DNA of 64,000 nt from Octopus sinensis (taxonomy: Eukaryota), in contig NC_042997.1 of NCBI RefSeq assembly GCF_006345805.1, positions 39,432,001-39,496,000 of the forward strand, given 5' to 3'. Position numbers and translations under genes: made by a program. Under the pieces are notes generated by a model, which worked only from the letters and a program-made list of their open reading frames with translations, made no database searches and was not told the origin of the DNA. Each line of letters starts with the position of its first letter. Position 1 is the first letter of the stretch. Shown here piece by piece: positions 52,801-55,800 of the stretch.

Positions 52801-55800
52801 TAATTTCATTTTAGCTGAATATCAAATTAGGTCGTGCCTTACGGCCTGGCGAGTATCGTGTAAAAGTTTATCAGTTATTGGTAGATGAACCTGAGGTAAG
52901 TTACTATATATATATATACATTTATACCCAAAAATAAGCAACAAGAATAGATCCGGTAATTTAGTACAATTGTTTCATACTATAACAATTTATTAAAGCT
53001 GCAAATATTACAGCAGATATAATATGTCAAGTAATCTTCAGCTAATTTCATATAGGTTTTCCAATAATATAAAGTTCTCAAATCAATTAGTAACATCCTA
53101 GAGAAGGTAAATATACCGCTAAAGCTGTAGATATGAATTTCCTGAGTAGCATATTCATTTGAATCTAAATTGTTTTACTGAACTTATATATATTTATATA
53201 TATCACTTCATATCGTTGAAAAAGGAATTTTCTGTTTATCTCATTTATATATTTCAGATTTTTACTTTGATTTGATATTATTGCAATTTATTTAGTTTAT
53301 TTAGAAAAAATATTAATTTTAAAAATTAAAGATTTAACTATTTTTTTAAGAAAGACTTATTAATGCTATTCATCTTGAATAAATTCTTATCTGTAAATTC
53401 TGTTGTAAATGGATAGCAAAATGTTTTTCTTTTGAAAGTTTCTCTTCTCAGAGGTGCAAAAAAAGATTCTTAGTGGGAGTGAGTTGCAAGCTCTTTAAGC
53501 AATTCCTATATCTGAATTTTAATCTAATCAAAAGATATTTGAATCAGATTATTTTGGAAATTAATATTAACAACTCTCTTGGGACACTCAGCCCAATTGA
53601 TTGGCCCCAGTGATACAAACTGAAAAGACTTTGAGGCCAATTTATCCGACTGATGAAACAAATGTGTTGTGTGTAGCCAATCAGAGATTGTCTTTCAGTA
53701 GATATAATATAAAACTATATAATATACATAGTTTTACATACTAATAAAATAGTTTCAGGCACTTTATCCTTTGTTTTCTACATGCATGCATCAATTTCAA
53801 TCTCAACAGAAAAAGTATTTTGGTCTTTTTGGCTACACATACCAAAACACTGTGTCTCAAAAGGGTTAGAGATTTTGTCAAATAACTTTATATTGCCAGC
53901 TAAAATGGCTGCATCCACTTTTAGTTCCCAATGGAAACAGTAATACACTTGCATACAATTAATGATATGTACTCTGTAATGTTACGAGTCAATTGAAGGT
54001 GAGCTGGCAGAAACGTTAGCACGCCGGACGATATACTTAGCGGTATTTCGTCTGTCTTTACGTTCTGAGTTCAAATTCCGCCGAGGTCGACTTTGCCTTT
54101 CATCCTTTCGGGGTCGATTAAATAAGTACCAGTTACGCACTGGGGTCGATATAATCGACATAATCCGTTTGTCTGTCCTTGTGTGTCCCCTCTGTGTTTA
54201 GCCCCTTGTGGGTAGTAAAGAAATAGGTATGACTAGACTGTAGGCTGAAAGGCTATTTGTTTAAACTATTGTCCATTACTCTGCTATATCAAATCTGTCT
54301 TGCTGAAATAGGTGATGTTTCTGTTTCATTGTTTACCATTATTTGTTTCACAAGAAGATGGCGAAAATACTCAAAAACCAAAAATACAGATGCAGCTATT
54401 CAAAAACTTAGTCCACACTTTTTAACTTTAAAAAAAAAAAACGGTTGTAAAAAGAACTAAAATGTGTAATTCATTGGAAGCCACTTATTGAGATAAGCAA
54501 CAGATAACTTTAGGCAAAGGATGTAACAATATTCTGTGTGTATTTAGTCCCTGCTAACTTTGATAACAATAACCATTTGATAACATATGATTCTAATAAG
54601 TGGTTGTTTCTATTTATCAGTTATAGATTTATTTTCCCAAATAACAATAATATTTTATTCTCTTCATTAGCCTTGTAAATTTCTCATTGAAACAATATTT
54701 GCTAAGCGGATGAGTGTTCTTGAATCCAAGAAGCAAATATTAGCTGAACTTAAAGAGCAGTGCAATTTAGACATACCTCTTTCAAGGTAAGACATTTATT
54801 TTGTGAGTTCTTCAAAAACTGTTTAAGTCAATGCCAAGTGCTGAAATTTGTGTTCAAATAATCATTAATATTTGTGTAAAGCATAATATTTCTTTCGTTC
54901 TAATATTAGTAGGCTGGACATAAGCCATTAAATGCTTATTTCCTAAAATCTTTTGAATGCTTAGTTTTGCAATGTTATTCAACTTGCAGAAATGTGAGGA
55001 TTAATGTGACAAAATTTCCCTCAGTATATATCCAACCCATGCAAGCATGGAAAGTGGACATTAAGATGAAGATTATGATACGTTTATGATATAATTTCTG
55101 GAAACTTATGTTTAAATTTTATATTTTTCTTTTATATCTTCATCTCATATATATCTTCCTTATTAGTCATAGAAATTTTCCATTGAAACAATATTAAGCT
55201 TAAGTAATTAAAATCTGTCTATAGATTGGGTAATTTTAGAATCTAGCATTATAATATCAGCTTACTAGTTGACATGTTACGATTGATGAAACCCCATGGA
55301 AAATTTAAATGTGTGAAAATCTCAAAATTATTCATAAAAATATAGAAAGTTTTTCAGAACTAGCAGTCATTATTAATCATGACAAGTGACTTTCAAAAGA
55401 ACTCAGTTATGAAGCATTTGAATTGTTAATGAAAGACAAAGTCAATATCTAACTTTAAAGTTACTCACTTTCCATTTTGTTTTAGTTTCAATAATTTTTC
55501 ATCTTTGTATTTAAGTCAACTTATACTTTCAATACTGATCATCTACAAAATGTTCTCTGGTGTTTCATTATTTGTGACTAGAAAGTGTTGACGCTGTTGT
55601 GTCCCTTGGATTGGTCTAGCTTATTCCAAAATTTTCTCTGGCGAATACAGCAGCGAATTGGTCGGCTTTTTCCTAATCAACTATGTTACTTCGATTCAAT
55701 ATTCTTTTGATAATTGATTAATCACATGAGGAATAGGTGCTCTGCCTTATTTTATACCAGATGTTGAGACCTAGCATTATTAAATGATGATGAAAGTGTT

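What the first reader, a model, noticed from the sequence alone, without database searches (positions are those of the whole stretch)
52926..53184. Candidate hammerhead ribozyme (Penelope/retrozyme type) antisense in a USP47 intron
Seen: the minus strand of 53047-52958 reads AAUUAG CUGAAGA U UACU UGACA UAUUA UAUCU GCUGUAA UAU UUGCAGC UU UAAUA AAU UGUUA U AGUA U GAAA CAAUUG UA CUAAAUU. It has both conserved core boxes (CUGANGA and GAAA) and a GUA cleavage triplet. Stem I is UUAG/CUAA. Stem II is a long hairpin with four paired segments. Stem III is minimal and palindromic (ACAAUUGU). The motif lies in a non-coding segment of about 260 bp bounded by TA-rich tracts. Known: minimal type I hammerheads with a palindromic stem III are characteristic of Penelope-like elements and metazoan non-LTR retrozymes, and they cleave as dimers. 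Inference: this is a retrozyme monomer or a Penelope pseudo-LTR of a cephalopod family with an unusually long stem II. Caveats: a U-U pair sits at the base of stem II, stem I is short, and the antisense orientation means the USP47 pre-mRNA would not be cut.
Basis: partly seen in the sequence, partly recalled or inferred. Interest (0 to 1): 0.75.

Follow-up and report, generated by a model that had tools for sequence, protein, structure and literature searches.

The report
Long-armed hammerhead in octopus Hydra retrotransposon
This is a broken-off tail of a Penelope-like jumping gene with thousands of copies in this octopus genome; it carries a conserved hammerhead RNA motif, predicted to self-cut only in pairs, whose side arm is over twice as long as in described relatives and holds a likely poly(A) signal, and it lies backwards in a USP47 intron, so it would not cut that gene's RNA.

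Summary
The hammerhead is there as described and is no chance match. It is not a retrozyme monomer. It is the 3' repeat (pLTR) ribozyme of a protein-coding Hydra-clade Penelope-like element (RT plus C-terminal GIY-YIG), sense to that element's ORF and antisense to USP47. The 259-bp insert is two head-to-head fragments in a (TA)n target. An 18-letter piece of the motif has 6,076 exact genomic matches (control 2). Across diverged subfamilies the core is kept and helices I, II and III show compensatory changes. The U-U pair is ordinary for the clade (14 of 25 published Hydra hammerheads). What is unusual: helix II spans 56-60 nt (published Hydra 12-26; up to 85 in sister families here), Rfam misses it, and it carries AAUAAA or AUUAAA about 24 nt before the predicted cut (110 of 116 intact copies). 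Folding favours the catalytic form only as a dimer. Insertions run through the cut site, so they were copied from uncut RNA. Cleavage and polyadenylation are untested. This scan found long-armed Hydra hammerheads, and once the embedded hexamer, before on other DNA. Verdict: new variant of a known kind.

The parts
52815..52895 (+). USP47 coding exon (residues 1219-1245); its donor site lies about 30 nt from the insertion; the intron runs 52896-54670
   Evidence: tblastn of P0059, 100% identity; splice signals read
52905..52918 (.). (TA)n tract, left part of the target site
52926..53141 (-). Arm 1: 5'-truncated 3' end (pLTR) of a Hydra-clade Penelope-like element, from 176 nt before the predicted cut to the first fixed end about 40 nt after it
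   Evidence: 94-98% identical genomic copies; continuous with the 3' UTR of RT/GIY-YIG ORFs in L069, L070, L105
52958..53047 (-). Type I hammerhead motif: stem I 53045-53042 with 52964-52961, core box 53041-53035, GAAA 52976-52973, palindromic helix III 52973-52966, predicted cut 52965/52964
52977..53034 (-). 58-nt helix II, a segmented hairpin with U-U at its base
   Evidence: folds at -14.3 kcal/mol, z -4.6 against mononucleotide shuffles; compensatory changes at 3 of 9 basal pairs
52989..52994 (-). AAUAAA hexamer on the 3' strand of helix II, ending 24 nt before the predicted cut; candidate poly(A) signal
   Evidence: AAUAAA in 89 and AUUAAA in 21 of 116 intact copies; function inferred
52930..52952 (-). 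Nearly invariant U/GU-rich element 13-35 nt after the cut, just before the first fixed end; candidate downstream poly(A) element or RT-binding site
   Evidence: alignment A1; subfamily-level conservation
53145..53184 (+). Arm 2: last 40 nt of the element's tail (second fixed end, about 140 nt after the cut), inverted and joined head-to-head to arm 1
53185..53204 (.). (TA)n tract, right part of the target site
5956..6044 (+). Second, diverged long-helix-II hammerhead of a sister family (58-nt helix II, U-U base, AUUAAA 23 nt before the cut), in an earlier USP47 intron and in sense orientation
   Evidence: flanking exons mapped

Best explanation
The segment is a dead two-armed insertion of the 3' end of a Hydra-clade Penelope-like retrotransposon, and its hammerhead is the element's pLTR ribozyme, which likely cleaves the element's RNA only weakly and as a dimer and would not touch the USP47 pre-mRNA, on which it lies antisense. 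Shown: the motif is sense to an RT plus GIY-YIG ORF, sits in both repeats of full copies, and is conserved with compensatory changes. Shown: insertions end at two fixed points about 40 and 140 nt after the cut, both at a TATA-containing motif that runs into the (TA)n target, and extend through the cut site. Inferred, by analogy with the anole Poseidon element: the element's protein nicks both strands of (TA)n, primes reverse transcription at the two internal sites of an uncut RNA, and the two short cDNAs are joined head-to-head. Inferred: the monomer stays off because the 3' strand of helix II pairs with the cleavage site, and two copies switch it on by pairing their palindromic helix III. Inferred and weaker: the long helix II is a tolerated extension that in this lineage also carries the element's poly(A) signal.
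For: ORF linkage: the motif lies on the sense strand downstream of the endonuclease in 35 of 41 ORF-bearing loci. L092 is pLTR-ORF(1124-aa frame)-pLTR. The window's own subfamily has the same layout in L069 and L075. Covariation in A1 (25 rows): 90.2% of cells paired against 33-46% for slid controls; both-sided changes at 2 stem I pairs, 3 basal helix II pairs and 1 helix III pair; the model-fitted alignment A2 agrees. N7 takes all four letters while the rest of the core stays. 6,076 exact matches of the 3' half against 2 for the reversed control. Ends: 59 of 65 copies stop in one of two windows after the cut; both ends sit at the same motif. Energies for the window copy: active monomer 3.8 kcal/mol above the best fold, active dimer -35.2 against -31.6 for two best monomers; in L077 and L092 the active dimer equals the best two-strand fold. 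Published: PLE hammerheads cleave poorly and as dimers (PMC4209133); two internal RT start sites, both strands extended, uncut RNA used, ribozyme protein-assisted (PMC11167929).
Against: No cleavage was measured. For the window copy an inactive two-strand fold (-40.3) still beats the active dimer (-35.2), and the dimer could not be scored for 2 of 8 copies because of a script fault. The apical part of helix II is only partly supported by pairing: 2 of its 6 apical pairs are broken in 9-10 of 25 rows. RNAalifold picks the inactive hairpin, not the hammerhead. Related sequences beat the shuffle control without any structure, so the pair counts are not probabilities. Loci were partly chosen with queries that hold the motif, which inflates the conservation counts. 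5' ends do not pile up at the cut (2 of 30 within 5 nt), so the genome gives no direct trace of cleavage.
Confidence: 0.8

Rival explanations
1. The fold is kept for another job (binding by the element's RT, or 3'-end formation) and is catalytically dead in the window's subfamily, which spread after weakening its helix II base.
For: Catalytic mutants do not affect insertion in vitro for the anole element (PMC11167929). The window subfamily has the weakest base pair (U-U, against G-C, G-U and A-U in sister subfamilies), a 4-bp AU-rich stem I and a probability of 0.03 for the 2.1-1.1 pair. No pile-up of 5' ends at the cut.
Against: All catalytic-core letters are kept while N7 varies freely, across families down to about 44% RT identity. 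U-U occurs in 14 of 25 published Hydra hammerheads and in an axolotl hammerhead that cleaves 22% as a monomer and better as a dimer.
Confidence: 0.15
2. The 259-bp segment is a monomer of a non-autonomous tandem retrozyme that makes circular RNA.
For: Its size, AT-richness and palindromic helix III resemble metazoan retrozymes (PMC7229834, passages). Short solo copies are abundant. One same-strand pair 398 bp apart is among the listed matches.
Against: The segment is two inverted fragments. It is continuous with ORF-bearing 3' UTRs. 29 of 33 close pairs are head-to-head, and 2 of the 3 same-strand pairs are 4.6-4.8 kb apart, the size of a full element. The 134-bp duplication seen upstream in some copies stops before the core.
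Confidence: 0.04
3. The match is chance, for example the reverse complement of splice-acceptor-like pyrimidine-CAG sequence in AT-rich DNA.
For: On the + strand the core box reads as a pyrimidine run ending in CAG. No Rfam hit; fold z -1.04.
Against: 0 descriptor hits in 60 shuffled windows, 1 in 653 kb of shuffled loci against 111 distinct hits in 1.42 Mb of real loci; fixed position and compensatory changes across families.
Confidence: 0.01

Closest known systems
Hydra clade of C-terminal EN+ Penelope-like elements and their hammerheads, including Hydra-1_Obim of Octopus bimaculoides (Craig et al. 2021, PMC8557442; seen: abstract, passages, sections 3 and 11, supplement part 2 of 59 with the Hydra sheet and File S2, supplement searches)
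   Same: RWK, DKT, CxCx5C linker, no cysteine pair between GIY and YIG, (TA)n target, sense type I hammerhead near the 3' end, palindromic helix III, U-U at the base of helix II, GUA triplet (11 of 25 published), inverted 5'-truncated copies.
   Different: Helix II spans 56-60 nt against 12-26; elements are about 4-5 kb with Asn-rich inserts and a 1-1.5-kb 3' UTR against under 3 kb; the tail is about 97 nt against 30-40; A(A/U)UAAA lies inside helix II. The hammerhead sequence differs from that of Hydra-1_Obim, so this is another family.
Minimal hammerheads of metazoan PLEs (Cervera and de la Pena 2014, PMC4209133; seen: parts 1-2 of 4)
   Same: Type I, short helix I (4-5 bp), palindromic helix III, location in both pLTRs, predicted dimer dependence.
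   Different: Their 'large' helix II is 6-8 bp with a conserved G10.1-C11.1; here about 20 bp in segments, with G-C, G-U, A-U or U-U at the base.
Poseidon element of Anolis (Frangieh et al. 2024, PMC11167929; seen: parts 1-2 of 4)
   Same: Two internal ends after the hammerhead that define a tail; both strands extended; insertions made from uncut RNA; AT-rich target.
   Different: There the ORF starts inside the hammerhead and the start sites are not homologous to the target; here both ends lie upstream of the ATG and share a few TA letters with the (TA)n target.
Metazoan non-LTR retrozymes (PMC7229834, passages and section 15; bioRxiv 10.64898/2026.07.22.740005, parts 1-2 of 5, supplements not seen)
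   Same: Type I hammerhead, AT-rich, 200-400-nt solo pieces; one axolotl family has U-U at the helix II base.
   Different: Not tandem, not protein-free in origin, no circular RNA evidence.
HIV-1 polyA hairpin (PMC2645353; seen: abstract only)
   Same: A hairpin present in both terminal repeats that encloses AAUAAA.
   Different: There the repression of polyadenylation is shown and no ribozyme is involved; here it is only an analogy.

Membership tests
Hammerhead ribozyme, type I | Core boxes CUGANGA and GAAA with an NUH triplet | tested here: met
   intact in 116 of 136 segments that reach stem I (sampling partly biased)
Hammerhead ribozyme, type I | Three helices, open at helix I, supported by covariation | tested here: met
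   both-sided changes in helices I, II and III
Hammerhead ribozyme, type I | G10.1-C11.1 (purine-pyrimidine) pair at the base of helix II | tested here: not met
   U-U in the window subfamily (47 of 116), G-U 34, G-C 26, A-U 9; U-U is a known natural variant, so this is treated as a usual, not a defining, feature
Hammerhead ribozyme, type I | Loop 1-loop 2 tertiary contact | not testable with these tools
   no recognisable contact at the usual distance; helix II is too long for the canonical geometry (inference)
Hammerhead ribozyme, type I | Site-specific self-cleavage | not testable with these tools
   only contigs, no raw reads, were available
Penelope-like element | Single ORF with PLE-type RT and GIY-YIG endonuclease | tested here: met
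   motifs read by eye and regex, Pfam gave no significant hit
Penelope-like element | pLTR-ORF-pLTR partial tandem, inverted 5'-truncated copies, optional tail | tested here: met
   L092, L107, L069, L075; head-to-head pairs
Penelope-like element | Retained spliceosomal intron in the leader (some families) | tested here: inconclusive
   an acceptor-like stretch precedes the ATG but no convincing donor and no spliced reads
Hydra clade | RWK motif, DKT in place of DKG | tested here: met
   RIRWK or RIRWR and ADKTG in L072, L077, L086, L088, L092; DKT in L069
Hydra clade | CxCx5C linker; C-terminal EN without the cysteine pair between GIY and YIG; CxxC and CxH further on | tested here: met
Hydra clade | (TA)n target and sense hammerhead near the 3' end | tested here: met
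Hydra clade | Placement with published Hydra RTs on a tree | not tested
   the tree (quick method) held only genome copies and database proteins, no published Hydra sequence; the N-terminus resembles Hydra-1_Obim by eye
Hydra clade | Generally short (under 3 kb) | tested here: not met
   unit about 4.1 kb (L069) to 4.7 kb (L092) between the two hammerheads; described as typical, not defining
Non-LTR retrozyme | Tandem non-coding units, each with a hammerhead | tested here: not met
Poly(A) site | A(A/U)UAAA 10-30 nt before the cut with a U/GU-rich element behind (textbook geometry, recalled) | tested here: met
   measured against the hammerhead cut as a stand-in
Poly(A) site | Polyadenylated RNA ends at the site | not testable with these tools
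   contigs cannot show ends

The most novel reading that the evidence does not exclude
The long helix II is a poly(A)-occluding hairpin built into the ribozyme. It hides A(A/U)UAAA so that the upstream repeat is not polyadenylated and some transcripts read through to the two reverse-transcription start sites; when it opens, the host machinery cuts at almost the same bond as the ribozyme and makes an mRNA that can be translated but not copied. One fold would then sort the element's RNA three ways: mRNA, transposition template, or ribozyme-cut (circularisable) RNA.
Probability: 0.3. Interest if true: 0.6.

Novelty: new variant of a known kind. Interest (0 to 1): 0.38.

Why it matters
Hammerheads in Hydra-clade elements are known, so the basic finding is expected. 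The variant matters in three modest ways. Thousands of motifs with 50-85-nt helix II escape Rfam and the published 7-17-nt core spacer, so ribozyme counts in cephalopod genomes are likely too low. The role of PLE hammerheads is an open question, and this family offers a natural series (four base-pair states at 10.1/11.1, two palindromes, two hexamers) for testing it. If helix II regulates polyadenylation, it would link a ribozyme fold to 3'-end choice in a retroelement, as the polyA hairpin does in HIV-1. For USP47 this copy is probably neutral.

Tried and rejected
Rfam: no hammerhead hit. Pfam on two ORFs: nothing significant. PDB search with the USP47 exon: nothing. My first reading that the motif was antisense to the element's ORF and mirrored an intron acceptor (from the inverted arm in L031) was dropped once ORF-3' UTR continuity was seen. 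Neptune membership was considered and dropped for Hydra on the motifs. Sequencing runs: no RNA holder listed on record, only guessed RNA runs kept as contigs; laying 7 different runs in two calls showed no joints and no poly(A) loose end among the rows shown (22 and 21 rows not shown), which is no evidence either way. Test for 5' ends at the cut: negative, 2 of 30. Hexamer enrichment across lineages: 5 of 12 lineages have A(A/T)TAAA ending 10-30 nt before the cut (P about 6e-5; 3 of 10 and P about 0.007 after merging related ones), but 0 of 6 further lineages found afterwards do, so the claim holds for this lineage group only. Column-wise conservation of the hexamer was spoiled by indels beside it. 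Dropped rows: L069's first hit (false core); the 68-nt hammerhead in L219 (a separate insertion, not tied to that ORF); rows aligning over 150 residues or less (L089, L223) were left out of the tree, and the careful tree did not finish. Lunse et al. 2016 was not held, known here only as a citation. Literature searches that found no description of a long helix II or an embedded poly(A) signal in animal PLE hammerheads; subscription journals, Repbase and Dfam were not searchable. File S2 does list a spike-moss element (PLE-X1_sMoe) with a helix II of about 54 nt, so long arms are not unique to octopus.

Full report
1. Observation. The motif is present exactly as written on the minus strand at 53047-52958: core box 53041-53035, a 58-nt helix II, GAAA 52976-52973, an 8-nt palindromic helix III, a GUA triplet with the predicted cut between 52965 and 52964, and a 4-bp stem I. 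It lies in the USP47 intron 52896-54670, about 30 nt from the donor of the exon for residues 1219-1245, antisense to the gene. The nearest named proteins come from Octopus and Argonauta. Rfam finds nothing. A descriptor hits the window twice and shuffled windows never (0 in 60).

2. It is a repeat, in two pieces. A DNA search of the 2.7-Gb genome gave 1,278 candidates; the 40 scored match query positions 44-259 at 94-98%, while positions 1-40 match separately on the opposite strand. So 52926-53141 (minus) is one arm, and 53145-53184 (plus) is an inverted copy of the element's far end. An 18-letter piece of the 3' half of the motif has 3,033 + 3,043 exact matches against 1 + 1 for the reversed control. 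Among the first 100 listed places, 33 neighbouring pairs lie within 10 kb: 29 head-to-head, 1 tail-to-tail, 3 on the same strand (398, 4,627 and 4,788 bp apart); counted by hand.

3. The parent element. [quoted passage not shown] In 35 of 41 ORF-bearing loci a core with a long spacer lies on the sense strand 0.8-1.5 kb after the endonuclease; the 6 misses are L031, L069, L073, L074, L078 and L093. L092 is a full pLTR-ORF-pLTR with a 1124-aa frame. L069 and L075 show the window's own subfamily with an upstream repeat, leader and ATG. The ORFs carry the marks that Craig et al. 2021 give for the Hydra clade (PMC8557442, section 11): RWK, DKT, CxCx5C, no cysteine pair between GIY and YIG, (TA)n target. 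They are longer than typical Hydra elements. The published octopus family Hydra-1_Obim has a different, short hammerhead. No tree with published Hydra sequences was made.

4. The fold is under selection. In 25 copies chosen to span subfamilies (A1), 90.2% of cells pair, against 33-46% when partners are slid. Both sides change at 2 stem I pairs (U-A to C-G, A-U to G-C), 3 basal helix II pairs and 1 helix III pair, where the palindrome switches between two forms through a G-U intermediate. The model-fitted alignment A2 (27 distinct of 40 rows) agrees. Of 164 distinct segments picked by the downstream motif, 136 reach stem I and 116 of these keep the whole core; N7 is T 51, A 46, C 16, G 3 (many loci were found with motif-bearing queries, so this is inflated). 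The apical hairpin is less well supported, and RNAalifold prefers an inactive pairing.

5. The U-U caveat. The base of helix II is U-U in 47, G-U in 34, G-C in 26 and A-U in 9 of 116. In File S2 of Craig et al., 14 of 25 Hydra families have U-U there and 11 of 25 have GUA (my count). An axolotl hammerhead with the same mismatch cleaves 22% as a monomer and better as a dimer (PMC7229834, section 15). U-U is therefore ordinary for the clade.

6. What is unusual. Helix II spans 56-60 nt, against 12-26 in the 25 published Hydra families and a 7-17-nt spacer in the published core search. More distant ORF-linked families in this genome have 51, 53, 54-56 and 85 nt, others 10 and 31 nt. The long ORF-linked forms fall in one clade of a quick RT tree (SH-aLRT 99, midpoint root), which also holds rows whose hammerhead is unknown. 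Most long arms fold better than mononucleotide shuffles (window: z -4.6; range -1.0 to -6.9). A spike-moss element in File S2 has about 54 nt, so long arms are not unique to this genome.

7. The hexamer. AAUAAA ends 24 nt before the cut in the window; 89 of 116 intact copies have AAUAAA and 21 AUUAAA, the two standard signals (recalled), while the facing strand varies. A near-invariant U/GU-rich stretch follows 13-35 nt after the cut. A sister family with a rewritten helix II keeps AUUAAA at 23 nt (17 of 22 true matches, two chance matches left out). Across lineages 5 of 12 have the hexamer 10-30 nt before the cut (P about 6e-5, or 0.007 after merging relatives), but 0 of 6 lineages found later do, and several have it after the cut. 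The test is post hoc. The U/GU-rich stretch may equally be an RT-binding site. Contigs of guessed RNA runs could not decide.

8. How it likely works. Copies stop at two points, about 40 and 140 nt after the cut (59 of 65; 30 loci were picked by the tail). Both points sit at the same TATA-containing motif, which continues into the (TA)n target. 5' ends are scattered; 2 of 30 lie within 5 nt of the cut. This fits the anole Poseidon element, whose protein extends both strands from two internal start sites on uncut RNA and whose hammerhead needs the protein (PMC11167929). The window insert is then one event: 216 nt from the first site and 40 nt from the second, joined head-to-head (inferred). For catalysis, the window monomer's active fold is 3.8 kcal/mol above an inactive hairpin; the double hammerhead (-35.2) beats two monomers (-31.6) but not an inactive two-strand fold (-40.3); in L077 and L092 the double hammerhead is the best fold; 2 of 8 copies could not be scored. 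Weak, dimer-dependent cleavage is the published behaviour of PLE hammerheads (PMC4209133; PMC6765202, passages). Head-to-head arms put only one motif on any transcript, so pairing in cis is open only to full pLTR-ORF-pLTR copies (inferred). This copy is antisense to USP47 and would not cut it.

9. Novelty. Searches found no paper on a long helix II or an embedded poly(A) signal in animal PLE hammerheads; Repbase, Dfam and subscription journals were out of reach, and the bioRxiv supplements were not seen. Earlier notes of this scan describe long-armed Hydra hammerheads in this and other genomes and the embedded hexamer once; my reading was written down before I saw them, and they are not independent evidence. 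Verdict: new variant of a known kind, interest 0.38. The boldest reading left open is that helix II is a poly(A)-occluding hairpin like that of HIV-1 (PMC2645353, abstract), probability 0.3.

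Noticed in passing
window 5956-6044 (+): A second long-helix-II hammerhead with an intact core, from a sister family (2,230 search candidates), lies in an earlier USP47 intron in SENSE orientation, between the exon for residues 14-87 (upstream of the window) and the exon at 7671; the pre-mRNA would carry both the motif and its AUUAAA.
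   Followed up: partly
L208, L169, L215, L036, L257, L037 (3' UTRs): Several Hydra-like families read CCGANGA instead of CUGANGA (U4 to C) with otherwise complete hammerheads.
   Followed up: no
L210 and L236 (3' UTR); L082 and L089 flanks; L076 and L219: Even longer helix II forms: 85 nt (ORF-linked, GUC triplet), 76 nt (two unrelated families) and 68-74 nt (with a 12-nt helix III).
   Followed up: partly
L002, L018, L021, L025, L027, L030, L069: Some copies of the window's subfamily carry a 134-bp tandem duplication in the 3' UTR that stops just before the hammerhead core.
   Followed up: partly
L069 6320-6140 (-), L075: Both fixed insertion ends lie at the same short TATA-containing motif, giving a few letters of homology with the (TA)n target, unlike the homology-free priming reported for the anole element.
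   Followed up: partly
L092 1858-5169, L069, L031: The ORFs carry long Asn-rich low-complexity inserts between RT and endonuclease; many copies keep open frames of 700-1124 aa, and NCBI models mislabel some relatives (for example as a GATA zinc finger protein).
   Followed up: no
window 50625-50855 and 53998-54228 (+): A 231-nt direct repeat, 90% identical, flanks the exons at 51009 and 52815 in neighbouring USP47 introns.
   Followed up: no
window 52956-53055 (+): On the USP47 strand the insert holds donor-like and acceptor-like stretches close to the real donor at 52896; no evidence that they are used.
   Followed up: no
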